Under the pieces are notes generated by a model, which saw only the letters and a program-made list of their open reading frames with translations, ran no database searches and was not told the origin of the DNA. Both the position numbers and the translations under genes were made by a program. A stretch of DNA of 64,000 nt. It comes from an uncultured Planctomycetia bacterium (GTDB taxonomy: Bacteria; Omnitrophota; Gorgyraeia; Taenaricolales; CAZCCH01). The stretch lies in NCBI GenBank assembly GCA_964497315.1, contig CAZCCH010000007.1:4503-68502 (forward strand), given 5' to 3'. Shown piece by piece: positions 37,389 to 54,464 of the stretch (the first letter of the stretch is position 1; each line of letters opens with the position of its first letter).

Positions 37389-38093
37389 TTGTCAAAGGTT
37401 TTTTATAAACCTAAAGTTATCAGAGCTGAGCAAATTCATTATGACGAAGCAGCAAAGCGGTACAGGGAGTCTGATGAAACCATAGATAATCAAGAGCAAT
37501 TTGATATTTTGCGCAATGAGAGCTTGTTACTTAACCCGGAAAACATTGTCTTGGATTTAGGTTGCGGCACAGGAAGATATTTTCATTGTTTGCCGGGGGT
37601 GCAGAGATTAATAGGAGTGGATTGTTCCGGAAGCATGTTGTTAGAGGCAAAAAATCCCTATATGCAGGAAGAAATAAAAGCCATGAAAATAGATTTAGTC
37701 AGGGCCGATATAAATAAACTTCCTTTCAAGAAAGATATTTTTAACTTCGCATATTCTATTGGTGTATTGGGGGAGCATGCTATTTTTGATAGTCATATAG
37801 CTAATGAAGTATACAGGGTTGCCAGGGTCGGCGCCAAATTTTTATTTACAACAAAACCAGTTCCAAAAAGGACTTTTATTCAAAAAATTAAACATTCTCT
37901 GGGAAATATATTGCGTTTGTTGTTAGCTTATTCGCTAAGTAAGAAGTTAGGTTTGAAGATATTTTTTGGCGCGTTTTATGCCGATGCTTCTAAGATAGAA
38001 AATACGCTAAAAAGAGCCGGATTTAAGACCCAGTATATTAAAGAGATATTGAAGGATATTCATTTGCACAATCTTACTTTAGCAGAGAAGTAA
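37389..38093 (+). CDS. Class I SAM-dependent methyltransferase
   Basis: Motif I VLDLGCGTGRY. Confidence 0.6.
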   Translation: MSKVFYKPKVIRAEQIHYDEAAKRYRESDETIDNQEQFDILRNESLLLNPENIVLDLGCGTGRYFHCLPGVQRLIGVDCSGSMLLEAKNPYMQEEIKAMKIDLVRADINKLPFKKDIFNFAYSIGVLGEHAIFDSHIANEVYRVARVGAKFLFTTKPVPKRTFIQKIKHSLGNILRLLLAYSLSKKLGLKIFFGAFYADASKIENTLKRAGFKTQYIKEILKDIHLHNLTLAEK

Positions 38094-38098
38094 ATAAG

Positions 38099-38911
38099 AT
38101 GAAATTTGCTATTAGAGATGACGATATAAATTATTTTACAAGGCCTGCGGATTTGGAAAAGATTTATAGCACTATTTGGGATAAATGTCCGGTTTGCTTA
38201 GCAACGATTCCCTTTGTTTCTTCTGAAGCAGATGTTCCGATACCGCCTGAATACAGAAATACAAATCAGGTTTTTCCCTTGGGTGATAATGAGCGATTGG
38301 TGCAGTTTTTGAAAAACAAGATTAAGGAGAAAAAAATATCAATTATGCTCCACGGCTATCATCATGAAAAGTATGCCGGAGGCTATGAATTTATAGCTGG
38401 AAAAGATCTTTGCGCAAAGATAGCCAGGGGAAAAAGCCATCTGGAAGAATTGTTTGATATTAAAATAAATACATTCGTTGCCCCGCATACCAGTTTGTCT
38501 AAAGAAGGGCTGGATGCTGTCATCGGGAATGGTTTAAGTTTATTGGGTCCGGGATCCTTATTGCGTCCAAGCAGGCGTTCTTTTCATATCCAAAACATTA
38601 CCCCGTTTGTAAAGTGTAAATGGTATAAATTGCGATATAAAATGAATTACCCTTATGTAATAGATATATCGGGGCATTTGGAATTATATTGCCATGGCCT
38701 TGTGCCGCATGTCAGCATAGATAGCCTTAAAAAAGAATTTGATTTTTGCTATAAGAAAAAGGGTATTTTTTGTTTGAATACCCACTATTGGGAATTTTTT
38801 AAAGATAATAACATGCGGAAGGTCTTTAATGAGCTTTGGCAATATATAGATGGATTCGACAGCTTGAAATTCACGAGTGTAGACAATATTTTTTTATCTT
38901 TTAACAAATAG
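38099..38911 (+). CDS. DUF2334-like polysaccharide deacetylase-family protein (tentative)
   Basis: N-terminus MKFAIRDDDINYFT recalls the xIRDDDxxxFT opening I associate with DUF2334. His-rich block MLHGYHHEKY. Confidence 0.4.
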   Translation: MKFAIRDDDINYFTRPADLEKIYSTIWDKCPVCLATIPFVSSEADVPIPPEYRNTNQVFPLGDNERLVQFLKNKIKEKKISIMLHGYHHEKYAGGYEFIAGKDLCAKIARGKSHLEELFDIKINTFVAPHTSLSKEGLDAVIGNGLSLLGPGSLLRPSRRSFHIQNITPFVKCKWYKLRYKMNYPYVIDISGHLELYCHGLVPHVSIDSLKKEFDFCYKKKGIFCLNTHYWEFFKDNNMRKVFNELWQYIDGFDSLKFTSVDNIFLSFNK

Positions 38912-38938
38912 GATGATTCACATTTATAAGCCAAAGAG

Positions 38939-40063
38939 ATGAGTAAGATGAGAATCAAATTTATAAATCGCAATATGGGGATGATTAGAGGTGGAGGAGA
39001 AACCTTTAATTTAGAAATAGCCAGGGCGTTGCAGGAACTGGGTTGTGAAATAAGTTTCATTATTGGCAGTCCGGTATTTGGAAGGATAAAATATCCCGTT
39101 ACTGAGTTTAGAACCGATTATTGCAGGTCACCTTATTTAAGAAATATTGCCATGAGATTGATTAGAGGCGCTGGAAAGTTAGCCTCTATTGATGCCGCGG
39201 TTTTTGAGAATGCAGCATACAGACTTTTAAGTAAGATGAAAGACTATGATATTATTCAGCTTTGCGGCTGCCCTAACTTGGGCGCAAGAATAGCTAGAGA
39301 TTTAAGAAAGAAAATTGTGCTGTTTATGCCCGGTCCGTCAACTTCTGAGCGTGATGCAGACATAAGGTCATGTAATGTTATCATATCTCACGGAGATGCA
39401 CTGACGCAATTGCGGAATAGGCTGAAAGACAAAAAAGAAATTTTTGAAATCCTTCCTGAAATAAACAGAGAGTTTTTTAAATCAACAGAGACTAATATCA
39501 GAAGAAAATATCAAATTAATGATGACAAATTATTGCTATTCGTTGGCAGGTTTGTGCCTTACAAAAACCTTATATTCTTAATTAGAGTTTTTAAAGAGAC
39601 GCTCAAAGAACATCCGGGAATAAGATTGATGTTGGTTGGAGAAGGTCCTTTTGAAAAAAGGATAAAGAAGGAAGTTAAGAAGCTCAATCTTGCCAAAAAT
39701 GTAGTTTTTACCGGCAATATTCCCCATAATTCCATAGCGCAATATTATTGGTCGGCGGATGCCTTAGTTTTGCCAAGTTCTTATGAATCATTTCCACTTG
39801 TTGTTATTGAGGCTATGGCCTGTGGTTTGCCCGTAGTGGCTGCAAAGGTCGGAGGGATACCTCTCATTGTGGAACATGGCAAAAATGGATTTCTTGCGAA
39901 TAACAATGACGTAGAGGGATTTAAAAATGCAATCATTGCTTTAATAAGCAACAAAAAATTATGCGGGGAAATGGGCAGGAGAAACAGAGAAGAAGTCTTA
40001 GTTAAATACGACTGGATGGAAAGTGCCAGGAAATTAAAAAAAATATACGAGACGCTTATATAA
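38939..40063 (+). CDS. GT4 family glycosyltransferase (copy a)
   Basis: EX7E region LPSSYESFPLVVIEAMACGLPVVAAKVGGIPLIV. The last ~110 nt are nearly identical to the 3' end of 42047..43174. Confidence 0.8.
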   Translation: MSKMRIKFINRNMGMIRGGGETFNLEIARALQELGCEISFIIGSPVFGRIKYPVTEFRTDYCRSPYLRNIAMRLIRGAGKLASIDAAVFENAAYRLLSKMKDYDIIQLCGCPNLGARIARDLRKKIVLFMPGPSTSERDADIRSCNVIISHGDALTQLRNRLKDKKEIFEILPEINREFFKSTETNIRRKYQINDDKLLLFVGRFVPYKNLIFLIRVFKETLKEHPGIRLMLVGEGPFEKRIKKEVKKLNLAKNVVFTGNIPHNSIAQYYWSADALVLPSSYESFPLVVIEAMACGLPVVAAKVGGIPLIVEHGKNGFLANNNDVEGFKNAIIALISNKKLCGEMGRRNREEVLVKYDWMESARKLKKIYETLI

Positions 40064-40069
40064 AATGAA
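39959..40069 (+). repeat. ~110-nt near-identical direct repeat with 43069..43180 (3' ends of the two GT4 paralogs, running through stop to the next ATG)
   Basis: ttatgcggg.aaatgggcaggagaaa.agagaagaagtcttagttaaatacgactggatggaaagtgccaggaaattaaa...atatacgag.cgcttatataaaatgaa, with about 6 mismatches. Confidence 0.85.
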
Positions 40070-40074
40070 TCATA

Positions 40075-40109
40075 TTGAAATTCATGAGTGTAGACAATAT
40101 TTTTTTATC
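40075..40109 (+). repeat. 35-nt copy (1 mismatch) of 38872..38906, fused to a 9-nt copy of the flippase start (ATGAAtCAT): a tandem-duplication junction remnant
   Basis: ttgaaattca(c/t)gagtgtagacaatatttttttatc is present at both sites. Remnant ORF 40065..40121 reads MNHIEIHECRQYFFIMEK. Confidence 0.8.
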
Positions 40110-40121
40110 ATGGAGAAATAA

Positions 40122-40973
40122 GTGACCTGGTTTTCGCACTTAGTATGCCCGTATTGCAGAAAGGGTTTGGATAGGCAGAGTCGGGCTTTGACCTGTACGT
40201 CTTGTGGACGTCTTTATTCGTTGATAGATGGTATACCAATCTTTGCTGATGAGCAGGATTGTAAGCGCTGGGATTTTCGGCAAGTAACTGTAGACACCCC
40301 TCTTTTATTATCCCCTAATAGAGCGAATTATAGAGAGGATGTATTAAAGAATAAGCACACTTATCTGTCCGCTCCGATTAGGGAGCATACTGGCTATATG
40401 CATTATGCAGAATCTTGGAATAGAATTTTGGATTTAGGTTGCGGAGATGGCATTTATTCAGCGCCCTTATCTGAAACGAGCGAAGAAATTTATTGCGTGG
40501 ATGCATCTTTATTAGCTTTAAAAAGACTCAAGAAACGAAATAAAAGAAATATGTTCCCTGTAAATGCCTCCGGATTCAAACTGCCTTTTAAAAATAATTT
40601 TTTTGATGGTGTTTTTTATATTTATGTGATAGAGCATATTGACAGGCCATTGGAAATGTTAGATGAAATTCATCGGGTATTAAAACCTGAAGGTACCCTT
40701 TTGATAGTTACGGATTCAAAGCATTTTTATCAGTGTATCAGGATAATGATAGAATTTTTCAAGTATAGGAGATTTAGGCCAAACGATCCAACCCATATCA
40801 ACTTAATGACGCCTCGTGAGATGAGAGAAATTATCAATAAAAGTAAATTCATTAGCAAGAAGGAAGAATTGCATTATTATCTGCGACAAAGCAGATATAA
40901 ATATGTACCTAAAATCTTGGCCGAACTTTTTTTAACCAGTAGCATGGTTCATACTTGTAAACCAGATAAATAA
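40122..40973 (+). CDS. Trm112-like zinc-ribbon + class I SAM-dependent methyltransferase
   Basis: CPYCRKGL..CTSCGRLYSLIDGIPIF, then ILDLGCGDGIYS. GTG start with GGAG RBS. Confidence 0.6.
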   Translation: MTWFSHLVCPYCRKGLDRQSRALTCTSCGRLYSLIDGIPIFADEQDCKRWDFRQVTVDTPLLLSPNRANYREDVLKNKHTYLSAPIREHTGYMHYAESWNRILDLGCGDGIYSAPLSETSEEIYCVDASLLALKRLKKRNKRNMFPVNASGFKLPFKNNFFDGVFYIYVIEHIDRPLEMLDEIHRVLKPEGTLLIVTDSKHFYQCIRIMIEFFKYRRFRPNDPTHINLMTPREMREIINKSKFISKKEELHYYLRQSRYKYVPKILAELFLTSSMVHTCKPDK

Positions 40974-42062
40974 ATGATGAATAAATTATCGAGTTTCTTT
41001 ATCGTGCTTAAAAAAGGTTTGCTTTTCTGGATGGCCAAAAAGAATAGAGTTTTTTGTAAAGCGCTAAATCCAAAGCCAAACAGTGCAAGTTTCAGGATAA
41101 CGGAACGCTGTAATTTACGGTGCATAATGTGCGGAATTTGGAAGAAACAAACTGGCGATGAGCTGACCACTGAACAGGCAAAGATTATTATAAAACAGAT
41201 TGCGGATATAGGCGTTAGGCAGTTAAGTTTTACTGGCGGAGAGCCGTTTACAAGGCCGGATATATACGATTTAGTCCTGTATTCAAAAAATATGGGGCTT
41301 GAAGTTGGGCTTGGCACTAATGGCCTGTTAATCAACGAGGATAATGCCACAAGGCTTTTGGAATGCGGCTTGAATACAATCGCGATATCGATCGATGGCC
41401 AAAAGATAAACCATGATTATATAAGAGGGGAAGGTTCTTTTGAAAAATCCTTAGCCAGTTTAAAATTATTAAGTACCCTGCGCAACAAATATAGTTTTAA
41501 TTTAAAAGCTTCATTTACAATAATGCAAAGAAATCTAGATGATATCTTGCCTTGCGTGCATTTATTAACCGCTATTAAAAATGTAACCGTGCATTTCAAT
41601 CTCCTGGATTTCACTCCTTATCATTTTAGGCACAGCAAAAATGAGGATTTGATTCTTAATGATTTCAAAAAGTTAGATAACATTTTAGATAACTTGTTGA
41701 TTTTAAAAATGCAAAAACATTTTTTACTTGATATTAATCGCACTTTTATAGACTTCGCAAAAAGATATTTCAGAGATCATAGACAGCAAAAAATTCCATG
41801 TTGCTTGGGATATCTGCGGCTTCATATTGACAGTTCCGGTCAGCTGTTGCCCTGCTGGGCTATGCCGCCAGTGGCTGATTTGAAAACAAAATCATTGAAA
41901 AAAGTATTAAGGGGCAGGTTTTACAAAGATTATTTATTTCAAATGCTTAACAAAAAATGCCCGGGGTGTTCATGCGCAACTGTCAATAATGCAGCACACT
42001 ATTTACCCGGGGTGTTTGAAAGAAATATGAGGCTATTATTCAAAACATGGAAAAGCCGTTAA
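40974..42062 (+). CDS. Radical SAM protein with SPASM/twitch-like C-terminal Cys cluster
   Basis: CNLRCIMCG (CX3CX2C). C-terminal CCLGYLRLHIDSSGQLLPCW...CPGCSC. Confidence 0.7.
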   Translation: MMNKLSSFFIVLKKGLLFWMAKKNRVFCKALNPKPNSASFRITERCNLRCIMCGIWKKQTGDELTTEQAKIIIKQIADIGVRQLSFTGGEPFTRPDIYDLVLYSKNMGLEVGLGTNGLLINEDNATRLLECGLNTIAISIDGQKINHDYIRGEGSFEKSLASLKLLSTLRNKYSFNLKASFTIMQRNLDDILPCVHLLTAIKNVTVHFNLLDFTPYHFRHSKNEDLILNDFKKLDNILDNLLILKMQKHFLLDINRTFIDFAKRYFRDHRQQKIPCCLGYLRLHIDSSGQLLPCWAMPPVADLKTKSLKKVLRGRFYKDYLFQMLNKKCPGCSCATVNNAAHYLPGVFERNMRLLFKTWKSR

Positions 42063-43174
42063 GGATAAAATTTATAAGTCGCAGGATGGGAGCGGCCAGA
42101 GGTGGCGGGGAAACTTTTGATTTAGAGATTGCAAAGAGGCTTAGGCATTTGGGTTGCGAAGTGAATTTTATTACCGCTAGGCACTTTTTTGGAAACATAA
42201 AACATAAAGTTGAAGGTTTTGAAACGACCTATTGCAGAATACCGTATCTTGTAGACCTGGCTATGGCTATTCCTAAAGGTAGCAGTATACTAATGTTTTT
42301 AGATAACTGGCTTTTCGAGTCACAAGTGTTGAGATTATTAAAGAGGAAGAATGAATATGATATAGCTCAGATTTGCTCTTGTCCCAATTTAGGCTATAGA
42401 ACGGTAAGGGAACTAAACAAACCTGCTGTTGTAAGAATGCCGGGGCCAGGATCATTAAAGCTCAATTACAAGCTTAGAGGGTGCAATGCTACTGTAGCCA
42501 GCGGAGATGCGTTTAAAAAGTTAAGAGAAGTTCTTGGGAAAAATGCCCATTATATTTCTAATGGTATAGATGGAGATCTTTTTAAAAGAGTAAAAAGCAA
42601 TAATTTGCGATTAACTTACGGAATTAAAAAAAATGAAAAGATATTGCTATTTGTAGGTAGATTTGTTCCGTATAAGAATCTCCCGTTTCTAATATCTGTC
42701 TTTAGAGAAACGTTAAAAGAAGATTGCAGAATCAAATTGGTACTAATAGGTGAAGGAGCCTTATTTGCTAAGATCAAAAAGTTAACTCGAATTTACAAAA
42801 TTGCCGACAGAGTTATTTTTACAGGTCATATACAACGTGCCGCTCTTGCACAGCATTATTCATTGGCAGATTTGTTTATTTTAGGTTCAAGTTATGAGAG
42901 TTTTCCAAATGCAGTTTTAGAAGCAATGGCCTGTGAATTACCCGTAGTTGCGACGAGAGTTGGAGGAGTCCCCATTATTGTCAAACACGAAAAGAATGGC
43001 CTGCTTGTTAAAAATAATGATGTCGGAGGATTTAAAAACGCTATCTTTACTTTTTTGAACGACAAAGGCTTATGCGGGAAAATGGGCAGGAGAAATAGAG
43101 AAGAAGTCTTAGTTAAATACGACTGGATGGAAAGTGCCAGGAAATTAAAGGAAATATACGAGGCGCTTATATAA
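42047..43174 (+). CDS. GT4 family glycosyltransferase (copy b; paralog of 38939..40063)
   Basis: LGSSYESFPNAVLEAMACELPVVATRVGGVPIIV. C-terminal RRNREEVLVKYDWMESARKLKEIYEALI versus ..KKIYETLI in copy a. The nt block 43069-43180 nearly equals 39959-40069. Confidence 0.8.
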   Translation: MEKPLRIKFISRRMGAARGGGETFDLEIAKRLRHLGCEVNFITARHFFGNIKHKVEGFETTYCRIPYLVDLAMAIPKGSSILMFLDNWLFESQVLRLLKRKNEYDIAQICSCPNLGYRTVRELNKPAVVRMPGPGSLKLNYKLRGCNATVASGDAFKKLREVLGKNAHYISNGIDGDLFKRVKSNNLRLTYGIKKNEKILLFVGRFVPYKNLPFLISVFRETLKEDCRIKLVLIGEGALFAKIKKLTRIYKIADRVIFTGHIQRAALAQHYSLADLFILGSSYESFPNAVLEAMACELPVVATRVGGVPIIVKHEKNGLLVKNNDVGGFKNAIFTFLNDKGLCGKMGRRNREEVLVKYDWMESARKLKEIYEALI

Positions 43175-43175
43175 A

Positions 43176-44696
43176 ATGAACCATGCAAACCAGGTGATAA
43201 GAAGAGGCGGCGGGTTGTTTGGTGCGCGCTTTCTGGTAGCTGTTTTTTCTATTGCATTTGCCGGTATATTCGCCCGCTTATTAACCAAAGAAGAGATGGC
43301 GGCGTTTGTTGTGTTGTTGCTATTGACCAGTTTAACAAGCGCCTTCAAGGAATTAGGCCTATCTACCTCGGCAATAAAATTGGTGCCGGAATTAATAAGC
43401 AGCGATAAAAAAAGTGAAGCGCTAAGCGTTATTAGAACAACGTTCATTGCTCAAGTTTTTGCTGCTGCAGCGCTGGCAACGGCCATTTATATTTTTTCTA
43501 ACCGAATATCAGAATTGTTTTTAAAGACCGGCGAATTTGCGTATTTAATAAAAATTTCCGCCGGTATTGTATTGCTTGATTGTATTTCCGGAAGCCTGGG
43601 AGCGCTATTGCGAGCCGTACAAAAATTCAGAGCCGTTAGCATTATCACGGTTGTTATGGATTTGTCTCAGAGGCTATTGGCGCTGTGCCTGTTTTTGCTT
43701 TTAGGAATAAAAGGTTTCTTTGCCGGTTTTTGCTTCGGTAGCTTTTTACGCCTATTTCTGTCGGTTTATTTTATGCGGAAATATCTATTTGTAAGCTGTT
43801 CCTGGCATCCTTTCTGGAAATTTGCCAGGTTTTCTTTGCCCTATTATGGAGGGAGTATCTGCAGGGTTCTATTGATGCGCCTGGACCAGTTAGCAATAGG
43901 TTTGTTTCTTGCTCCGAGCAGCCTGGCGTTATATTTTGTGTCCAGAAAATTGGTATCTTTTGTTGGAATGGGAATAGAAGCCTTTTTTGAGCCCATTATT
44001 CCGAAAATAGCAGAACTTAAAGCAAGCGGTATTAAAAAAATCGAAGGTGCCTTTAATAAAAACTCAAGATACCTTTCATTTGTGCTCCTGCCGTTAGTTT
44101 TTCTTATAGCCTCTCTGTCTCGCTTTCTTATTCGACTGATAGGCGGGTTAAAATATGCAGATGGAGGTGCGCTGGTGGCTATTTTATGTTTTGCTGTATT
44201 AACGTATGGTTACTTTTCGTTGTACCTTATCTATGTATACGTTATTGGAAAGCCGATTTTCAGGTTAAAGTTGGAACTTTTTGCAACAATTGGTTATTTA
44301 ATACTATGCGGGATTTTGATATATACGTTTAAAGAAATAGGCGTGGCTATAGCGAAATTTGTTACTTTTGGATTAGCTGCTCTATATGCAGGCACCTTGC
44401 TTAAGAAGCAATGCAGGGCGGTGTTTGACAAAGAGGCATTGCGGAATACACTGTTTGCTTCTTTTATTATGTTTTTGGTGTTGGTTGGATTGCAGCTAAT
44501 GTGCTATCGGTTATTTCTTATTCCGATTTATATCTTAATAGGCATTACTGTCTTTATGTTTCCATTCTGTCGAAACTTGAAGAAAAAAGACATTCAATTG
44601 GCAGAACAGCTATTACCAAGAAACTTTTTTTGGATAATTAAAGTTTTTTTCTTTTTTGGAGGCAGTAAACTAAAAGTGGAAATGGCATCGGCATGA
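43176..44696 (+). CDS. Wzx-type oligosaccharide flippase (polysaccharide biosynthesis protein, MOP superfamily)
   Basis: 506 aa with about 12-14 TMs. Position directly after the GT genes. Arg-rich N-terminus MNHANQVIRRGGG. Confidence 0.6.
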   Translation: MNHANQVIRRGGGLFGARFLVAVFSIAFAGIFARLLTKEEMAAFVVLLLLTSLTSAFKELGLSTSAIKLVPELISSDKKSEALSVIRTTFIAQVFAAAALATAIYIFSNRISELFLKTGEFAYLIKISAGIVLLDCISGSLGALLRAVQKFRAVSIITVVMDLSQRLLALCLFLLLGIKGFFAGFCFGSFLRLFLSVYFMRKYLFVSCSWHPFWKFARFSLPYYGGSICRVLLMRLDQLAIGLFLAPSSLALYFVSRKLVSFVGMGIEAFFEPIIPKIAELKASGIKKIEGAFNKNSRYLSFVLLPLVFLIASLSRFLIRLIGGLKYADGGALVAILCFAVLTYGYFSLYLIYVYVIGKPIFRLKLELFATIGYLILCGILIYTFKEIGVAIAKFVTFGLAALYAGTLLKKQCRAVFDKEALRNTLFASFIMFLVLVGLQLMCYRLFLIPIYILIGITVFMFPFCRNLKKKDIQLAEQLLPRNFFWIIKVFFFFGGSKLKVEMASA

Positions 44697-47055: not shown

Positions 47056-48147
47056 ATGTTTTTGAATTTGCATGATTTGTTAACTTTAAAAATTGTAAAT
47101 TGCCCTGAAGCATTTAAAAAATTTATTTGTGATAATTTTCAATTTCAGATTTATGAAAACTCGGGACAAAAAGGGCCTTCATTGGAGTTTGTTGACAAAC
47201 TGCCGGTCCAGAAACCTGTTTATTGCCTAACCGCAGACACTGGTTACTACGCAGACAACTTTTTCATTATTGACTATAATAACAATAAGCTTGTAGTCCC
47301 CTTTGATTTGGATATTTGTAACTGGTGTTTGAAGTGCGAGAAGGATTTTGACCCGTTACGGCTTTATAATTTAATTGATGCCCTTGTTTTTCAATTTACT
47401 TTGTTTGAATGCAACTGCGCCTTTGTTCATGCCTCCTCGTGCGTAGTTAAGGGAAAGGGGGTGGCCATAAGCGGATGGAAAAAAACCGGTAAGACAGCTA
47501 TTGTGCTAAAGTACTTGTTTCAGGGCGCACAATTTATTTCGGATGATCATTGCATTGTTTCAAAGCAGGGCGAGATGTTTTCTTATTTGAGGCCGACATA
47601 TATACCATATGCCGCCTTGGACGATTTCCCACAATTAAAAAGAAAGATTCCTTTTCGCCTTCAGGCTAAAATCCCTATCAAGAAAATATGGGATCAGGCC
47701 TATAGATGTATGCCCAGAGGCAAGACGGTGGCAACGAAAATGTCTGATGTATTCAACAATTTGGCGCAGTTGCACTCGAATATCCCTATAAATTTTAAAA
47801 CGCTGTTTCCAAATTCGCTTACAGCGACTAAATTTGATCTACAGCTGTTTTTCTATATCAAAAAGTGGAATGGAGAAGATATATATTGTCAGAAGGTTGA
47901 TAAGCGGGTGCTTTCCGGGCGCCTTGCCCATTCAAGCAGATATGAATACAGGAGTTTTTTTGATTATTATCAAATATATCGTACCGCATTTCCTGACAGG
48001 GATAATGTCATGTTCAGAGAGTATGAATCTCGAATTGCCAATATCAGTTACGAGGCGCTTAAAAAGGCAGATTGTTACGATGTGCATATTCCGGCAGACG
48101 GCAATATTATTGAAGTAGCGGATTATCTTTACGAGAAGTTTCTATAA
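47056..48147 (+). CDS. HprK-related (HPr kinase C-terminal-like) protein with degenerate P-loop, embedded in the GT cluster
   Basis: CAFVHASSCVVKGKGVAISGWKKTGKTAIVLKYLFQGAQFISDDHCIV parallels HprK HA..v...g.GvLi.G.SG.GKS..al.L...G..lvaDD. Confidence 0.5.
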   Translation: MFLNLHDLLTLKIVNCPEAFKKFICDNFQFQIYENSGQKGPSLEFVDKLPVQKPVYCLTADTGYYADNFFIIDYNNNKLVVPFDLDICNWCLKCEKDFDPLRLYNLIDALVFQFTLFECNCAFVHASSCVVKGKGVAISGWKKTGKTAIVLKYLFQGAQFISDDHCIVSKQGEMFSYLRPTYIPYAALDDFPQLKRKIPFRLQAKIPIKKIWDQAYRCMPRGKTVATKMSDVFNNLAQLHSNIPINFKTLFPNSLTATKFDLQLFFYIKKWNGEDIYCQKVDKRVLSGRLAHSSRYEYRSFFDYYQIYRTAFPDRDNVMFREYESRIANISYEALKKADCYDVHIPADGNIIEVADYLYEKFL

Positions 48148-48163: not shown

Positions 48164-49354
48164 GTGAAAATTTGCATTGCGGTTGAGCCGTATAATCTCA
48201 TATCCGGACATTGTAGACTGGCCGTAGAACTGGCCGGCCAACTGGTCAAAATGAACCATGAAGTTGTATTATTAACAACGCGCCCGACGGATGCCGTAGA
48301 GAACCTCAACAAACAACTCGCGGCTGATGTTTCTTTAAGTGGTGTAGAAATCCTGGCGCCTTTTCATTCTTCTTCCGACCCATTGACAGATAAAACGAAA
48401 TCTGTGATACGGGCATCTTTAAAAGGCGTTGATCTTGTTCACGGTTTTAATTTTAGAATTACGAACTTGATTATGTCATTATACGGCGCCGAGAGGGATT
48501 TTTTTGTTGTTTACCATTTATCCGGTCAAGCTAAATGGAGATGGAGAGATTTATTAAAAGCAGGGCCTTCCAGTTTTCTTATTCTGACAAGGCTTATTCA
48601 TATATACAAGCTTTTATCTCCTGCCGGAAAATTTAAAAAGATTTTGATGCGGTATGACAAAATCACAGTGGGATGCAATTTTTTGGCAGAATTAGTAAAA
48701 TGTATGGGGATTGACAGAGAGAGGATAGAAGTGGTTCCATGGGGCCTGGATATGAAGAGATTCACCGATGTTTCCAGCCAGCCATTCCCCGCACGGCAGA
48801 ATTTTCTTTATTTTGGATGGGGTTCATCTATAAGGGGAGTCCCGGATGTGCTTGAGGCATTTAAACTCTTATTAAGAAATGACCCCAGCGTCAGATTGAC
48901 ACTTTGTTTCCCAGGTTTTCACGGACTTGAAGAAGAATTTCTTAAATTTTCTATTAGAAAAATGAAAATCTCCGAATCTGTGTCATTAAAGAGTTTTGTG
49001 CCGGATATTTTGAAGATGATAGCGGATAGCAGCGTTGTTATTTTACCTTTTCGCTCAACAGCGGGTTTTCCTCACCCTCCTTTAGCGATTTTGGAAGCCA
49101 TGGCAGTTGGCAGGGTAGTTATATCGACATTGACAGGCTCAATCCCGGAGATAATTTGCGATAATAAAACAGGTTTTTTGGTGCCACCAAGGGATCCCAG
49201 TTCTTTGTATAAGAAGATGTTATTGACCTATAACACTCAATTGCGGCGGGAGATTGGAGAAAGGTCGAGAGAGTATATTGCTCTTGCGCATAGCTGGGAG
49301 TACGCGTTACCCAAAATTCTTAACGTGTATAAACAAATACAGAAAAAGGGTTAA
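48164..49354 (+). CDS. GT4-like glycosyltransferase (divergent)
   Basis: C-terminal ILPFRSTAGFPHPPLAILEAMAVGRVVISTLTGSIPEII. GTG start with GAGGGAG RBS. Confidence 0.6.
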   Translation: MKICIAVEPYNLISGHCRLAVELAGQLVKMNHEVVLLTTRPTDAVENLNKQLAADVSLSGVEILAPFHSSSDPLTDKTKSVIRASLKGVDLVHGFNFRITNLIMSLYGAERDFFVVYHLSGQAKWRWRDLLKAGPSSFLILTRLIHIYKLLSPAGKFKKILMRYDKITVGCNFLAELVKCMGIDRERIEVVPWGLDMKRFTDVSSQPFPARQNFLYFGWGSSIRGVPDVLEAFKLLLRNDPSVRLTLCFPGFHGLEEEFLKFSIRKMKISESVSLKSFVPDILKMIADSSVVILPFRSTAGFPHPPLAILEAMAVGRVVISTLTGSIPEIICDNKTGFLVPPRDPSSLYKKMLLTYNTQLRREIGERSREYIALAHSWEYALPKILNVYKQIQKKG

Positions 49355-49355
49355 G

Positions 49356-50108
49356 ATGGGAAAATATGATTATGGGCCGAAAAAGGCCTATTCTAATTCA
49401 GGGCTTGTTGCGCGTTACGATCTTGATAGGTTTTCTTCGCCAGCGGGAAAGTTGATCGGTTCTATTGAAGAGGATATTGTCCTGGCAAGCATCCCGATAA
49501 AAGAGCTGGCTGATGGAAATAAAATTATTCTTGATATGTGCACGGGTACAGGCAGATTTGCCGTTGAATGCGCGAAACTAAGATTAAATGTTATCGGTTG
49601 CGATGCATCATTGCCTATGCTGCGCACGGCCCTTCAAAAAGCAGCAACTTTGAATTTATCCCGAAATACGGATTTCGTATCTGGAGATATATACAATTTA
49701 CCTTTTAAAGATGGGAAATTCTCGCATGTTATTTGCATAAGGCTTATTAACCAGTTACAGGGAAAAGATTCCAAGGAAAGGGCCATAAAAGAATTATGCA
49801 GGGTTTGCGGTGAAGGAGGGACATTCCTTTTTGATTTCGTAAATGCCAGCAGCATTTCCCTGGTTAGAGGCCGTTTACATAGGTCACGTTTAGTGTCTTT
49901 CGCTGATATAGAAAAGATAGTATCAGCTATCCCGGGCGTTAGAATAAAAAGTTTTACGGGAAGGTTCATAATTTCACAAACTATCTTAATGCATATCCCC
50001 CGCTATCTTTTGAAAATAATGACGAAATTAGACGCGGCTTTGTCCCGCCTTTTCTATGGGTATGCGATTAAAGGGTATGTTGTTATTGAAAGGTCAAGGA
50101 AATCTTAA
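49356..50108 (+). CDS. Class I SAM-dependent methyltransferase
   Basis: ILDMCTGTGRFAVECAKLRLNVIGCDAS. ATG directly after the upstream stop; the ORF track start 49254 overlaps the upstream gene. Confidence 0.6.
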   Translation: MGKYDYGPKKAYSNSGLVARYDLDRFSSPAGKLIGSIEEDIVLASIPIKELADGNKIILDMCTGTGRFAVECAKLRLNVIGCDASLPMLRTALQKAATLNLSRNTDFVSGDIYNLPFKDGKFSHVICIRLINQLQGKDSKERAIKELCRVCGEGGTFLFDFVNASSISLVRGRLHRSRLVSFADIEKIVSAIPGVRIKSFTGRFIISQTILMHIPRYLLKIMTKLDAALSRLFYGYAIKGYVVIERSRKS

Positions 50109-51278
50109 ATGAAAATTTTGATTAATGGGATTGGCTCTAAATTTGGAGGCAGCGCCGCCGATTTTATAAACATTATCTGGAGCTTTACGGATTTGGCCAA
50201 GGACGATGAGTATTTTATATATGCCTCAAGGGCTCTTGCCAAAGAATTTGATGGACTGCCGGAGAATTTTCACATACTATCTTCCGCGTTTGCTGAAGCT
50301 AATTGGATTTTTAGGTTTTTATTTGACCAGGTTGTTATTCCTTTATTTATCGCGAGCAAAGGGATAAAGGTATTTATTGGATTTTTTAACTTCGCGGTTT
50401 TTATTTCACCGGTTAAGCAGGTTATACGTATAACCAACGACCTTTGTTTTTCTGGGATTGCGTTGCGAAGGGCGAAATTTCTAAATGCGGCGTATTTTGC
50501 CAGGGTTACCATGCTGCGGTATTTAATTGTTCTTTCAATCAAAAAAGCCGATAGGGTTATATTTCTTTCCAATGCCCTTAAGGCGGATGTCGCGCGCTAT
50601 TTTAAAAAAGATATACCGGCGGAAAAATGCCTGGTTTCATATAATGGGATAAATGAGGGGCGTTTTGCAATAGAGGAAAGCTTAAGTGATGAACTCAAAC
50701 AGAAGATGTCGCCTGTCTCTGGAAAAAATCCTTTTTATATTCTCTATCCAGCGTACTATTATTTCCATAAAAACTTTGACACCTTATTTAAGGCATTGCC
50801 CGATTTTAAAAGAAGCATCCATGGGGAATTCAAGTTGGTTCTCACAATTTATATAGATAAAGCGCTTGGAGGATCTTATGGATGGGATAATGCAGTAAAG
50901 CTTATGGAGGATTTATCCATAGCGGAAGACATTATTTTTTTGGGGAATATCCCATATTCAAAAATGCACCTTATCTACAAGGCCTGCCAGATGGTAGTAT
51001 TTCCTTCTTCGACCGAAGCTTGCCCTAATCCTTTATTGGAAGCAATGTTTCACGGGTTGCCCATTGTTGCGTCTGATATTCCTGCGCATAAAGAGCTTTG
51101 TCAGAATGCGGCTTTATATTTTAAGGTATTTGATCCTCAGGATCTTGCGCAGAAATTGGCGTTGGTAGCAAAGGATAAGGAGCTATATAACCGGTTTGCC
51201 AAAGAGGGGAAGAACAGGTGTTCACGATTTTCATGGCGCGTGCATGCAGAAAAACTTTATCATGCTATAGAAAATTGA
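50109..51278 (+). CDS. GT4 family glycosyltransferase
   Basis: VFPSSTEACPNPLLEAMFHGLPIVASDIPAHKEL. Confidence 0.7.
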   Translation: MKILINGIGSKFGGSAADFINIIWSFTDLAKDDEYFIYASRALAKEFDGLPENFHILSSAFAEANWIFRFLFDQVVIPLFIASKGIKVFIGFFNFAVFISPVKQVIRITNDLCFSGIALRRAKFLNAAYFARVTMLRYLIVLSIKKADRVIFLSNALKADVARYFKKDIPAEKCLVSYNGINEGRFAIEESLSDELKQKMSPVSGKNPFYILYPAYYYFHKNFDTLFKALPDFKRSIHGEFKLVLTIYIDKALGGSYGWDNAVKLMEDLSIAEDIIFLGNIPYSKMHLIYKACQMVVFPSSTEACPNPLLEAMFHGLPIVASDIPAHKELCQNAALYFKVFDPQDLAQKLALVAKDKELYNRFAKEGKNRCSRFSWRVHAEKLYHAIEN

Positions 51279-51314
51279 TATAAATCCGATATTTGATAAA
51301 GAAAGGCACTAAAG

Positions 51315-52262
51315 ATGAAATTGCTGATGTTACTTTTAAAACTTTTTCCAAAAAGAGCGCAGGTTGAAATAACTACCCGGTGCAATTTAGATTGCAAGAT
51401 GTGCCCGCGCTCAAGATATGGCATAAAACCGATGGATATGTCATTGGGAGCGTTTAAGAAGATACTGGATAAGCTTTCTTCCGTAAAAGAGATTACGATA
51501 TCCGGATGGGGTGAGCCGTTACTTCATCCCGATCTTGAAAAAGTAATAGATTATTGCTTGGAGGAAGGTAAGAAAATTAAGCTGACTACCAATGGGTTGT
51601 TGATTAATGATGCAAATTTAAAATATTTGATAAAGATAGATGAGATTACATTTTCCATAGACCAACTGGATGATGATAAACATTTAACCTTAGGGCATTG
51701 TCAGAAGATAGCGATTGAGAATATAAGAAAGCTTGCAGGGCAGAGAATTGGCAAAAAACTGCATATCAGGATACAATCGGTATATTACAGGGAGAATAAG
51801 AGAGATATTCTGGAAATAATCAAAATGGCAAAAGAATTGGGAATTGATTCTGTCAAGGTGATGCGAATTAACCCGCGCTACGGCCCGCCCGGGGCTTTTC
51901 CAAATATTTCACGAAATGAGCTTTTAGAATTTTATGGAGAAGCGAATAAATTCGCAAAGGCGTTAAAAATGAGAGTAGACTTCGTAAACTATGCCTTTTT
52001 CAAAGGTGCAGCAAGGATTATACACAAAATAAGCATGTTTTTTATCCTCCCGGCTTTAAAAATTTACTGCACAAGGGTTCTCAATTTTATTTATGTAAGA
52101 GTGGATGGGAAGGTAAGCCCCTGCGGCGGGATACGCGATTACATCATTGGCGATTTGTCAAAAGAAGACCTTGGGGCTATATATAAGAGCGAGAAAGTTC
52201 AGGATTATAGAAAGAATTATTTGGAGATTTGCAAAGGTTGTAGTTTTATGATTGACCACTAA
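51315..52262 (+). CDS. Radical SAM protein with twitch/SPASM-like C-terminus
   Basis: CNLDCKMCPRSRY. C-terminal SPCGGIRDY...CKGCSFM. Confidence 0.65.
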   Translation: MKLLMLLLKLFPKRAQVEITTRCNLDCKMCPRSRYGIKPMDMSLGAFKKILDKLSSVKEITISGWGEPLLHPDLEKVIDYCLEEGKKIKLTTNGLLINDANLKYLIKIDEITFSIDQLDDDKHLTLGHCQKIAIENIRKLAGQRIGKKLHIRIQSVYYRENKRDILEIIKMAKELGIDSVKVMRINPRYGPPGAFPNISRNELLEFYGEANKFAKALKMRVDFVNYAFFKGAARIIHKISMFFILPALKIYCTRVLNFIYVRVDGKVSPCGGIRDYIIGDLSKEDLGAIYKSEKVQDYRKNYLEICKGCSFMIDH

Positions 52263-53019
52263 AATGGCAAAAGATATGAAAATTCCTATAGTATTCTATC
52301 ATTCGCTTTGTGAAGAAAAAAGCGGCAATAAGTATTGCCTTGATAAAGATAAGTTTGAAAGCCAAATTTCCTATTTGGCCAAACACAGTATTGAGGTTCT
52401 ATCGGTATATGATGCGATGAATCTAAATAAGGCGCCTTTGAGCACCAACCCTGCTGTTATGGTTGCGTTTGACGATGGATGCGCAAGCCTGTTTAATTAT
52501 GCCTATGCGATTTTGAACAAATTTAACTTTAAAGCCCATATATTTATCGCGACAGACTTCATAGGCAAAGAAGGATATCTACAATGGGACCAGATTGTAA
52601 AATTGCATAAAGATGGCTTTATAATAGGTTCACATGGCCATTCGCATAGAAATCTCGCGACCTTGGGGAGTGAAGATATTTGCCGCGAATTACAAATTTC
52701 CAAATCGTTGTTGCAAGAAAAGCTGAATGTGAATATAGACATAGTTTCGCTTCCTCACGGAGGTTTCGATAAACATGTACTGGAGGCTATTGAGGAGACC
52801 GGTTTTAAAGCTGCTTTTACTTCAGTTCCTACGTATGGCATTTCTTGCGAAAATCTTTATGTATTTGGAAGATTTGCGATTCTTGCCAATACTAGCCAGG
52901 CTAAATTTGAAGCAATCGTGAATCACCGTCTGCGGGTTTTTGTTGCGGAGAACTGTTTTTATAGGATGAAAAAGCTTATTAAGCCGGTTTTGAAAATACT
53001 TAAAAGAGGACAAATATGA
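52252..53019 (+). CDS. Polysaccharide deacetylase (CE4/NodB homology domain)
   Basis: VMVAFDDGCASL (Asp-Asp metal motif) and IIGSHGHSHRNL (His-His). Confidence 0.8.
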   Translation: MTTKMAKDMKIPIVFYHSLCEEKSGNKYCLDKDKFESQISYLAKHSIEVLSVYDAMNLNKAPLSTNPAVMVAFDDGCASLFNYAYAILNKFNFKAHIFIATDFIGKEGYLQWDQIVKLHKDGFIIGSHGHSHRNLATLGSEDICRELQISKSLLQEKLNVNIDIVSLPHGGFDKHVLEAIEETGFKAAFTSVPTYGISCENLYVFGRFAILANTSQAKFEAIVNHRLRVFVAENCFYRMKKLIKPVLKILKRGQI

Positions 53020-54464
53020 AGATAACATTTTTGGTGCCTCCGATTTTACAGGGTACGAGAATAGCCGAAAGAGTAGCCGGTTGTTCTTATGTCCTTTATG
53101 ATGTCCCAAATATTTTCATGGTTTTGTTCGCTGCGGTTGCCAGAGATGCTGGCCATGAGGTTTCATATGTAGATTTTCCTGTGATGAAGAAAAGAAGAGA
53201 TGATTTTTTAAATTTCTTGAAAAATGATGATAGCCATGTTTATTTCATTTTTACAGTTGAGCTATCTGTGCAGACAGATATTCTGGCGCATCAATTGATA
53301 CGGCAAACAAGAGGAAATATCCCTTTGATATTCGCGGGCCCGGCCCCTTCACATCGTCCGGAGACGTTTTTGAAAGATGCCTATACCTATATTGTAAGAG
53401 GAGAGCCGGAGCGAACCATGATAGAGTTATTGGTTACCCTGGATACAAAGGGCGATTTTAGTCAGGTCAAAGGATTAAGTTTTATTAAAGACAGAGAAGT
53501 TGTTCATAACCTTCCGCGGGAATTAATAAAAAATTTAGACGATTTGCCGTTTCCTGCCAGAGATTTGGTGGATAAAAGTAAAGGCATGTATTTTAACCCA
53601 AAATTAAGAATTAGGCCGGTTACTTTAGTGCTAGGATCGAGGAATTGTTCCTATAGATGCATCTATTGCGTACCGTGCGCGTTAACTTTTGCGATAGAGA
53701 TAGAATATAAACGTTATTTTAAAAAGAAACCACCGGTGAGGCTTAGAAGTGCTCAAAATATTATTTCAGAGTTTAATTTGCTGAAGAAACAAGGGTACAA
53801 GGCAGTTGTTTTTCAGGATGACATTTTTATTTGGGAAAAACAGAGAACCATCGAATTCTGCCGCGGAATTAAAAATGTGGGCATAGTCTGGGGTTGCCAG
53901 GCGAGGGCAGATCATCTTTCCGAAGACTTGCTGAAGGAGATGGCTCAATCTGGGTGTAGGTATATTGATATCGGCATTGAATCATTCAATCAGGAAATAT
54001 TGGATGCTGTGAGAAAAGATTTAAAGGTGGAGGACTCTATCAGAGCCATAAAACTTATCAAGAAATATGGCATAGACGCGAAGATAAATATCATATTCGG
54101 AGCCACGCCACTGGAGACAAAGAAGACGATAAACCATACCAGAAAGATGGTAAAGAAGCTTAAGGTGAGTCAAGTCATGTATTCAGCATGTGCGCCATGG
54201 CCCGGCACTGAACTTTACGATATAGCCAAGAAGCAAGGATGGTTTGTTGATGGCGACTATAGGCCAAGCGATGGAGATAGAGAATCCATCATACAATTTC
54301 CCCATTTATCCAAAAAAGAGCTGGAATCTTTATTGAAAAAGGCAAATTTGGAATTCTTTTTAAATATTCGATTTATAATGAGAAATATTTTCAAAACCGG
54401 CTTGTTCAATGTCGCCAACCTTGTGGATTCTGTTAAGGCCGTATTCAGGAAAATAAGATGGTAA
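53016..54464 (+). CDS. Class B (cobalamin-binding) radical SAM enzyme, likely C- or O-methyltransferase-type
   Basis: N-terminal Rossmann-like B12-binding region. CSYRCIYCVP cluster. 482 aa. Confidence 0.7.
   Translation: MKITFLVPPILQGTRIAERVAGCSYVLYDVPNIFMVLFAAVARDAGHEVSYVDFPVMKKRRDDFLNFLKNDDSHVYFIFTVELSVQTDILAHQLIRQTRGNIPLIFAGPAPSHRPETFLKDAYTYIVRGEPERTMIELLVTLDTKGDFSQVKGLSFIKDREVVHNLPRELIKNLDDLPFPARDLVDKSKGMYFNPKLRIRPVTLVLGSRNCSYRCIYCVPCALTFAIEIEYKRYFKKKPPVRLRSAQNIISEFNLLKKQGYKAVVFQDDIFIWEKQRTIEFCRGIKNVGIVWGCQARADHLSEDLLKEMAQSGCRYIDIGIESFNQEILDAVRKDLKVEDSIRAIKLIKKYGIDAKINIIFGATPLETKKTINHTRKMVKKLKVSQVMYSACAPWPGTELYDIAKKQGWFVDGDYRPSDGDRESIIQFPHLSKKELESLLKKANLEFFLNIRFIMRNIFKTGLFNVANLVDSVKAVFRKIRW

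What the first reader, a model, noticed from the sequence alone, without database searches (positions are those of the whole stretch)
38866..43180. Sequence scars of a tandem GT4 duplication followed by insertion of a methyltransferase + radical-SAM pair
The 3' ~110 nt of the two GT4 genes, including stop and the next ATG, are almost identical (39959-40069 versus 43069-43180), while their 5' parts have diverged. Right after GT4a, a 9-nt copy of the flippase start (ATGAATCAT, compared with ATGAACCAT at 43176) is fused to a 35-nt copy of the 3' end of the DUF2334-like gene (38872-38906). This is exactly the junction expected from tandem duplication of [deacetylase-end..GT4..flippase-start]. The junction forms an 18-codon remnant ORF at 40065-40121. 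The Trm112-methyltransferase and radical-SAM genes (40122-42062) lie between the junction and GT4b, implying a later insertion. This shows ongoing modular remodelling of the glycan pathway, possibly phase- or strain-variable.
Basis: seen in the sequence. Interest (0 to 1): 0.55.

Follow-up and report, generated by a model that had tools for sequence, protein, structure and literature searches.

The report
Two glycan gene cassettes joined in tandem
The repeat scars are real, but they mark one recent head-to-tail join of two long-diverged versions of the same sugar-polymer gene module, not a duplication followed by a later gene insertion; this is ordinary remodelling of a polysaccharide locus, unusually well preserved.

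Summary
39960-40073 matches 43071-43184 (108/114 nt). 38864-38898 matches 40075-40109 (34/35 nt). The two copies meet at a head-to-tail joint: flippase nt 1-9, one extra A, then the DUF2334 gene's 3' end. Neither repeat is expected by chance.

Upstream of the 114-nt repeat, GT4a and GT4b are saturated at synonymous sites (dS ~2.2, 51% aa identity). Inside it dS is 0.12. So the joint is far younger than the GT4 split.

All 69 related loci examined carry a single copy of this GT4. In the closer relatives it sits between DUF2334 and the flippase. The slot between DUF2334 and GT4 is empty in some of them. In others it holds a methyltransferase and/or radical-SAM gene, including the best homologues of the window's own MT and rSAM.

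Best reading: an empty-slot cassette (GT4a) and a filled-slot cassette (MT-rSAM-GT4b) share only their flanks. One illegitimate recombination stacked them in tandem, or a duplication was followed by allelic replacement. I found no evidence of phase variation. This is a new member of a known kind, of modest interest.

The parts
38099..38911 (+). DUF2334-family (predicted deacetylase) gene; conserved left anchor of the module
   Evidence: Pfam PF10096 E=3.2e-12. Homologues at 36-51% identity lie upstream of the single GT4 in relatives.
38864..38898 (+). Repeat B1: last conserved codons of the DUF2334 gene (LKFTSVDNIFLS); source copy of the 35-nt scar
   Evidence: 34/35 identical to 40075-40109. 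It ends where DUF2334 homologues stop being conserved.
38899..38938 (+). Tail 1 (FNK*) plus 27-nt spacer: left edge of the empty-slot cassette
   Evidence: Similarity to the 40110+ region stops abruptly at 38898/38899.
38939..40063 (+). GT4a glycosyltransferase (374 aa; other gene callers start at 38948 or 38975)
   Evidence: Pfam Glycos_transf_1 E=1.9e-49. 51% aa identity to GT4b over residues 1-337, 89% over the last 35. Family-invariant residues are retained.
39960..40073 (+). Repeat A1: GT4 3' end, stop, and the first 9 nt of a flippase gene
   Evidence: 108/114 identical to 43071-43184. dS is 0.12 here against ~2.2 upstream.
40074..40074 (+). Novel joint: one A of unassignable origin between flippase nt +9 and DUF2334 codon -15; no microhomology of more than 2 nt
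   Evidence: Direct reading of the alignments.
40075..40109 (+). Repeat B2: non-coding remnant of a DUF2334 3' end. In the old frame it reads LKFMSVDNIFLSWRNK*, with TGA at 40123-40125 overlapping the MT start
40065..40121 (+). 18-codon scar ORF (MNHIEIHECRQYFFIMEK*). It starts 1 nt after the GT4a stop and ends directly before the MT GTG
   Evidence: Translation and a coupling role are inferred, not shown.
40122..40973 (+). Methyltransferase with an N-terminal Trm112-like zinc ribbon; slot gene of the filled cassette
   Evidence: Pfam Methyltransf_11 E=6.5e-22, Trm112p E=1.1e-5. Homologues at 39-48% identity lie next to the single GT4 in L012/13, L014 and L092.
40974..42062 (+). Radical-SAM (weak SPASM-like) gene; slot gene of the filled cassette
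   Evidence: Pfam Radical_SAM E=2.3e-23. Its best homologue (48%) lies between DUF2334 and a single GT4 in L175/L176/L177.
42047..43174 (+). GT4b glycosyltransferase (375 aa), directly upstream of the flippase as in relatives
   Evidence: Pfam Glycos_transf_1 E=1.6e-42.
43071..43184 (+). Repeat A2: GT4b 3' end, stop, and the start of the intact flippase gene
   Evidence: Four independent contigs end or start at 43097-43100, at the 5' edge of the 53-nt exact stretch.
43176..44696 (+). Wzx-type flippase (Polysacc_synt_3); conserved right anchor of the module
   Evidence: Pfam E=5.3e-21. It follows the single GT4 in L012-L014, L171, L173 and L174.

Best explanation
The locus is a Wzx/Wzy-type polysaccharide operon. 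Its conserved core in relatives is DUF2334 - [variable slot] - one GT4 - flippase. The window holds two versions of that core in tandem: an empty-slot version (tail1 + spacer + GT4a) followed by a filled-slot version (MT - rSAM - GT4b).

The two versions share only their flanks: the last ~12 codons of the DUF2334 gene (B) and the last ~35 codons of GT4 plus the flippase start (A). Their interiors diverged long ago, as alternative alleles or old paralogues of one lineage. A single, much more recent illegitimate joint fused flippase nt +9 of one version to DUF2334 codon -15 of the other.

This could have happened in one step. Unequal or illegitimate recombination between two allelic DNAs would do it, for example homology-facilitated illegitimate recombination of DNA taken up from a related strain, anchored upstream. 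It could also have taken two steps: a tandem duplication of one version, then homologous replacement of one copy's interior using DUF2334 and A as arms.

The result is a strain that expresses both GT4 paralogues plus the MT/rSAM modifiers from one tightly packed operon. The scar leaves an 18-codon ORF that exactly bridges the GT4a stop and the MT start.

Shown: the repeats, the joint, the step in divergence, the single-copy synteny and slot variability in relatives, and the sister relationship of GT4a and GT4b.
Inferred: that two alleles existed, which recombination route was taken, and any role for the scar ORF.
For: - Joint and repeats.
- Step in divergence: third-codon-position identity is 0.3-0.55 along the gene and 0.93 at the end. 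dS is ~2.2 upstream against 0.12 in the last 34 codons. Permutation P<1e-4.
- B2 is non-coding yet 34/35 identical, so the joint is recent.
- GT4a and GT4b are sisters on long branches in 185/200 bootstraps on the unconverted part. The nearest outside homologues are 42-49% identical.
- Both cassette types exist singly in relatives. DUF2334 is directly followed by GT4 in L172, L093, L094 and L173. The slot holds MT, rSAM or AsnB genes in L012/13, L014, L171, L174 and L175, and L092 has MT directly upstream of its GT4.
- None of 69 loci with this GT4 subfamily has two copies.
- In the old DUF2334 frame B2 runs on to a TGA that overlaps the MT GTG. This is typical operon spacing, as if DUF2334 was once followed directly by MT.
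- GC content is flat across the region, so both cassettes are native to this kind of genome.
- Contigs from four samples cross the joint.
- Stacking of an incoming module beside the resident one, leaving duplicated flank fragments, has been proposed for T6SS effector-immunity and Rhs arrays, with HFIR as the putative mechanism (PMC5361080; HFIR defined in PMC3240628).
Against: - No strain carrying either cassette alone at more than 51% protein identity exists in the databases searched, so the two-allele premise is not directly observed.
- No microhomology is visible at the joint, although HFIR joints usually show a few nt.
- Competence or any other DNA-uptake route in this uncultured organism is unknown.
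- 35 nt is short for the homologous-arm role that B would play in some two-step routes.
- A long-standing duplication with continuous gene conversion of A cannot be strictly excluded.
Confidence: 0.62

Rival explanations
1. First reader's model. An ancestral DUF2334-GT4-flippase underwent a tandem duplication of the 1.2-kb unit. The two GT4 copies then diverged in their 5' parts, and an MT+rSAM pair was later inserted between the joint and GT4b.
For: The joint has the right topology. GT4a and GT4b are sisters. DUF2334-GT4 adjacency exists in some relatives (L172, L093, L094).
Against: There is an ~18-fold difference in dS between the 5' 340 codons and the 3' 34 codons, and the dead 35-nt remnant is 97% identical. 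Uniform post-duplication divergence cannot produce that pattern. The model also needs an unexplained replacement of one GT4 5' part.
Confidence: 0.06
2. An ancient in-situ tandem duplication, with or without loss of MT-rSAM from copy 1. The 3' 114 nt, and by luck the 35-nt remnant, have been kept nearly identical by repeated intragenomic gene conversion (concerted evolution) while the rest diverged.
For: The sister relationship and long branches fit an old duplication. The C-terminal 35 aa are the most conserved part of the family (45-66% against 42-49% identity to outsiders), so conversion tracts there would be tolerated. A 53-nt exact run is enough for RecA-dependent exchange.
Against: B2 is non-coding, only 35 nt long, and has no homologous flanks to seed conversion, yet it is 97% identical. 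A1's similarity runs past the stop into the 9-nt flippase stub and ends exactly at the joint. That boundary is what a young joint predicts, not what a conversion tract predicts. None of 69 related loci has an old duplicate.
Confidence: 0.15
3. The near-identity of A and B reflects nucleotide-level function rather than recency. Candidates are a promoter in B, or an RNA or translational-coupling element in A that is needed upstream of the next gene.
For: B contains TTGAAA-17 nt-TATTTT in both copies. A carries the stop/start overlap region used for the flippase.
Against: Promoter-like 9/12 matches are at background frequency in this 38% GC DNA (26 found against 19.6 ± 4.9 expected). Neither junction folds better than shuffles (z = -0.70 and -0.46). 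Rfam finds nothing. Selection on an element does not explain identity at every spacer and third-codon position.
Confidence: 0.07
4. Assembly artefact: two co-occurring strain haplotypes were concatenated by the assembler at shared repeats.
For: Four contigs break at 43097-43100, at the edge of the 53-nt exact repeat. This shows the repeat does tangle short-read graphs.
Against: The joint sequence (ATGAATCAT-A-TTGAAATTCATG) is a novel string that must be present in reads. It is crossed identically by contigs from four different samples and two assembly pipelines. A1/A2 and B1/B2 carry copy-specific differences.
Confidence: 0.02

Closest known systems
Tandem-duplication novel joints in bacterial chromosomes (end of unit fused to start of unit)
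   Same: Head-to-tail topology. The end of the unit (GT4 3' end + 9 nt of the next gene) abuts the start of the unit (DUF2334 3' end). Direct repeats flank each copy, so each copy could in principle be lost again by recombination.
   Different: The two units are not copies of each other. Their interiors are saturated at synonymous sites and differ in gene content (0 against 2 slot genes). Only 114 + 35 nt of flank are alike.
Homology-facilitated illegitimate recombination (HFIR), described for S. pneumoniae, Acinetobacter baylyi, Pseudomonas stutzeri and E. coli conjugation (PMC3240628; references 41, 42, 47 of PMC5361080)
   Same: One illegitimate joint, plus long homology on the other side, would insert foreign or allelic DNA next to resident DNA. 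This explains the structure in a single event.
   Different: The donor, the anchor crossover and the uptake route are not observable here. No microhomology is seen at the joint.
Displacement or stacking of variable modules next to resident ones: orphan immunity arrays in V. cholerae T6SS clusters and C-terminal displacement in Rhs loci (PMC5361080)
   Same: An alternative module sharing a conserved flank is added beside the resident module instead of replacing it. This leaves duplicated fragments of the conserved flank and a mosaic locus.
   Different: Here the modules are glycan-biosynthesis genes, both complete and apparently functional, inside one operon. There is no toxin/immunity logic and only one stacking event.
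Mosaic capsule and O-antigen loci with conserved flanks and a variable centre (for example pneumococcal cps, PMC5850285)
   Same: It is a Wzx/Wzy-type locus. Recombination breakpoints lie inside glycosyltransferase genes, and alternative gene sets occupy the same position in different lineages.
   Different: In serotype switching the alternatives replace each other. Here two alternatives are co-resident in tandem, with the scar preserved to the nucleotide.

Membership tests
Simple recent tandem duplication | Head-to-tail novel joint (end of unit fused to start of unit) | tested here: met
   Flippase nt 1-9 + A + DUF2334 3' 35 nt at 40065-40109.
Simple recent tandem duplication | The two units are homologous along their whole length, with roughly uniform divergence | tested here: not met
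   dS ~2.2 against 0.12. The units are 1211 and 3111 nt long and differ in gene content.
   L012/13, L014, L171, L174 and L175 have MT and/or rSAM in that slot with one GT4. The best homologue of the window's rSAM (48%) is in L175, and MT homologues at 39-48% lie next to the single GT4 in L012/13, L014 and L092.
Homology-facilitated illegitimate recombination / module stacking | One illegitimate joint with resident DNA retained beside incoming DNA | tested here: met
   A single joint at 40073-40075. Both cassettes are intact.
Homology-facilitated illegitimate recombination / module stacking | Short microhomology (about 3-10 nt) at the illegitimate joint | tested here: not met
   At most 2 nt (CA) of possible overlap, plus one unassignable A.
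Homology-facilitated illegitimate recombination / module stacking | An identifiable donor allele in a related strain and a homologous anchor crossover | not testable with these tools
   No relatives between 51% and 100% protein identity are in the collections.
Intragenomic gene conversion tract | Significantly long identical fragment between otherwise diverged paralogues | tested here: met
   53-nt run against a permutation maximum of 31; P<1e-4.
Intragenomic gene conversion tract | Tract bounded on both sides by homologous (paralogous) sequence | tested here: not met
   The tract runs out of the gene into the 9-nt flippase stub and ends at the joint. B2 has no homologous flanks.
Phase-variable glycan locus | Slippage-prone repeat in the coding or promoter region, an invertible element, or alternative arrangements in the population | tested here: not met
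   No inverted repeats flank the region. The only tracts are A8 (40037-40044, 20 nt before the stop) and T7 in B. All sister contigs are colinear. Resolved recombinant proteins are absent. Read-level data were not available.
GT4 (GT-B, Glycos_transf_1) glycosyltransferases, for GT4a and GT4b | Pfam PF00534 above the gathering score, and the subfamily's invariant residues retained | tested here: met
   168 and 145 bits against a cutoff of 26.4. Invariant columns are shared with 26 homologues. dN/dS is ~0.19 over the diverged part.

The most novel reading that the evidence does not exclude
The tandem arrangement could be a functional "allele stack". A1/A2 (114 nt, with a 53-nt exact run) and B1/B2 (35 nt) are direct repeats. 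Recombination at A would delete MT-rSAM-GT4b and regenerate a DUF2334-GT4a-flippase locus. Recombination at B would delete GT4a and regenerate DUF2334-MT-rSAM-GT4b-flippase. The population could then switch among three glycan genotypes from one chromosome, a recombinational glycan-variation device in an uncultured lineage. The scar ORF would keep translation coupled in the stacked state.
Probability: 0.1. Interest if true: 0.55.

Novelty: new member of a known kind. Interest (0 to 1): 0.3.

Why it matters
This is a clean, nucleotide-resolved example of how polysaccharide loci gain complexity. The gain comes from stacking two alternative cassettes that share flanks, not from gene-by-gene insertion. 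It gives one strain two diverged glycosyltransferases plus methylation and radical-SAM tailoring in a single operon. It also defines a conserved module (DUF2334 - variable slot - GT4 - flippase) in poorly known uncultured bacteria, which helps in annotating such loci. It does not change any general understanding.

Tried and rejected
- Close relatives with single-cassette alleles. Protein searches with DUF2334 and GT4 found nothing between ~51% and 100% identity, and the rSAM search nothing between 48% and 100%. The population in the databases is clonal.
- Genome-collection scan with the GT4 profile. It returned only 22-37% homologues, mostly from PVC-group MAGs. These served for copy-number statistics only.
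- Metagenome scan. Only L091-L095 were informative.
- Exact look-up of ten predicted resolved recombinant proteins (DUF2334 with tail 2; GT4a N-part with GT4b-type C-termini). None is in the collection.
- Using the DUF2334 C-terminus to decide which tail (LSFNK or LSWRNK) is ancestral. Homologues end before the tail, so this is uninformative.
- Promoter in B: at background frequency.
- RNA structure at the joints: none. Rfam: nothing.
- Compositional sign of foreign origin: none.
- The first NJ bootstrap run timed out and was redone with a faster distance routine.
- P0160, an apparently different GT4a C-terminus, is a 1-nt frameshift in a G-run on a 1.5-kb contig, not an alternative joint.
- The organism's taxonomy was not determined.
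Full report
OBSERVATION.
- Repeat A: 39960-40073 aligns without gaps to 43071-43184 (offset 3111) with 108/114 identical bases and a 53-nt exact core at 39986-40038. It comprises the last 104 nt of each GT4 gene, the TAA stop, one A, and the first 9 nt of the flippase ORF (ATGAATCAT against ATGAACCAT).
- One base later (A at 40074), repeat B begins: 40075-40109 is 34/35 identical to 38864-38898, the last conserved codons of the DUF2334-family gene.
- ORF 40065-40121 encodes MNHIEIHECRQYFFIMEK*.
- The 35-mer is expected 0.00 times by chance.
- A and B are two of only three direct-repeat families of 30 nt or more in the 64-kb window.

NOT AN ARTEFACT. The window is part of a 69-kb metagenome contig (JGI 3300009374, Ga0118720_1000422). 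Independently assembled contigs from JGI, ENA and Logan samples are colinear with it at 99.95-100% identity. Contigs from four samples cross the joint (L001/L006, L002, L003, L004), and contigs from three cross GT4b-A2-flippase (L001/L006, L009, L010). Four contigs end or start at 43097-43100, at the 5' edge of the 53-nt exact stretch. That is how short-read assemblers behave at a real repeat.

ANATOMY AND CONTEXT. The region lies in a long same-strand polysaccharide operon. Upstream are a beta-barrel protein, a Wza-like exporter, a Wzc-like protein and Wzy_C. Then come a PMT_2-like protein, a methyltransferase, DUF2334, GT4a, [scar], a Trm112-ribbon methyltransferase, a radical-SAM gene, GT4b and a Wzx flippase. 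Downstream are more GT4s, methyltransferases, radical-SAM enzymes, a deacetylase, a FemAB-like protein and a GT2. Genes are packed with 0-27 nt spacers or overlaps.

THE KEY DISCREPANCY. Along the codon alignment of GT4a and GT4b, third-position identity is 0.3-0.55 for codons 1-330 and 0.93 in the last window.
- Nei-Gojobori estimates for 338 upstream codons: pS 0.71 (dS ~2.2, saturated), dN 0.43.
- For the last 34 codons: dS 0.12, dN 0.037.
- Permuting the 421 differences never gave a run longer than 31 (observed 53) or fewer than 17 differences per 104 nt (observed 5) in 10,000 trials.
- B2, which no longer encodes anything, is 97% identical to B1.
The event that made the joint is therefore far younger than the split between the two GT4 genes. 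Duplicate-then-diverge cannot give this pattern.

RELATIVES. No protein between ~51% and 100% identity exists for DUF2334 or the GT4s in 5.8 billion clusters, so close strains are not available. More distant relatives (36-50% for DUF2334, 37-47% for GT4, 29-39% for the flippase) are informative. All have one copy of this GT4, upstream of the flippase where the flippase is visible. DUF2334 lies upstream where the contig reaches that far, with a variable slot between DUF2334 and GT4.
- Slot empty: L172 (GCA_030615855.1, 4-nt overlap between DUF2334 and GT4), L093, L094, and L173, where the GT4 is fused to a methyltransferase domain.
- Slot filled: L012/L013 (AsnB-MT), L014 (B12-rSAM-MT-MT), L171 (MT-B12-rSAM-MT), L174 (B12-rSAM), and L175 (SPASM-type rSAM, small ORF, MT).
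- L092 has MT directly upstream of its single GT4; no DUF2334 hit was seen in its 5' part.
- The window's MT is 39-48% identical to the MTs of L012/13, L014 and L092, the same level as the flanking orthologues.
- The best database homologue of the window's rSAM (48%) is the slot gene of L175/L176/L177.
- Of 69 fetched loci with a strong hit to this GT4 subfamily, none has two copies.
That is what is seen.

RELATIONSHIP OF THE TWO GT4s. On the unconverted part (residues 1-337) GT4a and GT4b are 51% identical, against 42-49% to the nearest outsiders. They are sisters in 185/200 NJ bootstraps, on long branches. Both keep the subfamily's invariant residues. dN/dS is ~0.19, so both look functional. 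They are old paralogues or old alternative alleles of one lineage.

MODEL. The simplest account is that two versions of the module existed and shared only their flanks. One was an empty-slot version (DUF2334...LSFNK*, 27-nt spacer, GT4a). The other was a filled-slot version (DUF2334...LSWRNK*, whose TGA overlaps the MT GTG, then MT, rSAM and GT4b). Both single versions have counterparts among relatives.

One illegitimate joint between flippase nt +9 of the first version and DUF2334 codon -15 of the second gives the present structure. Every boundary is then explained:
- A1 ends at the joint and begins at the edge of the variable cassette.
- B2 begins at the joint and ends at the other cassette edge (38898/38899 = 40109/40110). 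That is also where DUF2334 homologues cease to be conserved.

The route could be a single event: unequal or illegitimate recombination between allelic DNAs, for example HFIR with an upstream homologous anchor (HFIR as defined in PMC3240628). It could also be a tandem duplication followed by homologous replacement of one interior. I cannot separate these two routes. The 3-5% divergence of the A and B copies may pre-date the joint as strain divergence, or may post-date it. GC content is uniform, so neither cassette looks compositionally foreign.

CONSEQUENCES (INFERRED). The scar ORF starts 1 nt after the GT4a stop, using the flippase's own start context. It stops immediately before the MT GTG. 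Ribosome hand-over along the operon could therefore be preserved, but this is untested. The sigma70-like TTGAAA-17-TATTTT in B is no better than background. Neither junction has significant RNA structure, and Rfam is silent.

VARIABILITY. A and B are direct repeats, so recombination at A or at B would regenerate either single-cassette form. I found no sign that this happens. All contigs have the stacked form, and ten predicted recombinant proteins are absent from a 15-billion-protein collection. That is weak negative evidence, since read-level data are needed. The few SNPs among sister contigs are all nonsynonymous. One is a stop in the MT (codon 103) in one sample.

COMPARISON WITH KNOWN CASES. 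The joint is of the tandem-duplication type, but the units are not duplicates. The closest described process is stacking or displacement of variable modules that share a conserved flank. This has been proposed, with HFIR as the putative mechanism, for orphan immunity arrays in V. cholerae T6SS clusters and for Rhs C-terminal displacement (PMC5361080). More generally, it resembles the mosaic evolution of capsule loci with breakpoints inside glycosyltransferase genes (PMC5850285). This is a further, well-preserved instance in an uncultured lineage. It is a new member of a known kind, of modest interest (0.3).

Noticed in passing
window 43097-43100 (also L002 end; L007, L008, L011 starts): Four independently assembled contigs from different samples end or start within 4 nt of each other, at the 5' edge of the 53-nt exact part of repeat A2. 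This repeat systematically fragments short-read assemblies of the locus.
   Followed up: yes
L003 (ERZ23498658), equivalent to window 40429: One sample's contig carries TTG->TAG at codon 103 of the slot methyltransferase, inside the LDLGCG SAM-binding motif, which splits the gene. All 7 SNPs seen among sister contigs are nonsynonymous. This could be real loss-of-function variation or low-coverage error.
   Followed up: partly
window ~39917-39919 (protein P0160, ENA contig of 1496 nt): A 1-nt deletion in a G-run gives a frameshifted GT4a C-terminus (…NNNDVEDLKMQSLL) in one short contig. It is upstream of repeat A and is not an alternative joint.
   Followed up: partly
L173:2375-4312 (GCA_964647565.1, CAZYIM010000055.1): In one relative the orthologous GT4 is fused to a C-terminal class-I methyltransferase domain (645 aa). 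It lies directly between DUF2334 and the flippase, which argues for a functional GT4-methyltransferase partnership.
   Followed up: partly
window 48164-54464: A second set of the same kinds of genes lies further down the operon: GT4, methyltransferase, GT4, SPASM radical-SAM, Polysacc_deac_1 deacetylase and B12-binding radical-SAM. The cluster holds at least 6 GT4-type genes, 3 methyltransferases and 3 radical-SAM enzymes, so the glycan is probably heavily tailored.
   Followed up: no
window 37551-37567 and 40428-40444: An exact 17-nt repeat, TTGGATTTAGGTTGCGG, is shared by the two methyltransferase genes. It encodes the SAM-binding motif LDLGCG and probably reflects motif and codon-usage conservation rather than another scar.
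   Followed up: no
window 11-7699 (repeat 2155-2312 / 3004-3161): A giant 2562-aa ORF at the start of the window has an internal 158-nt direct repeat (73% identity, 849 nt apart). It was not characterised.
   Followed up: no
window 47056-48147: A 363-aa ORF within the glycan operon has no Pfam hit at E<=1e-5.
   Followed up: no
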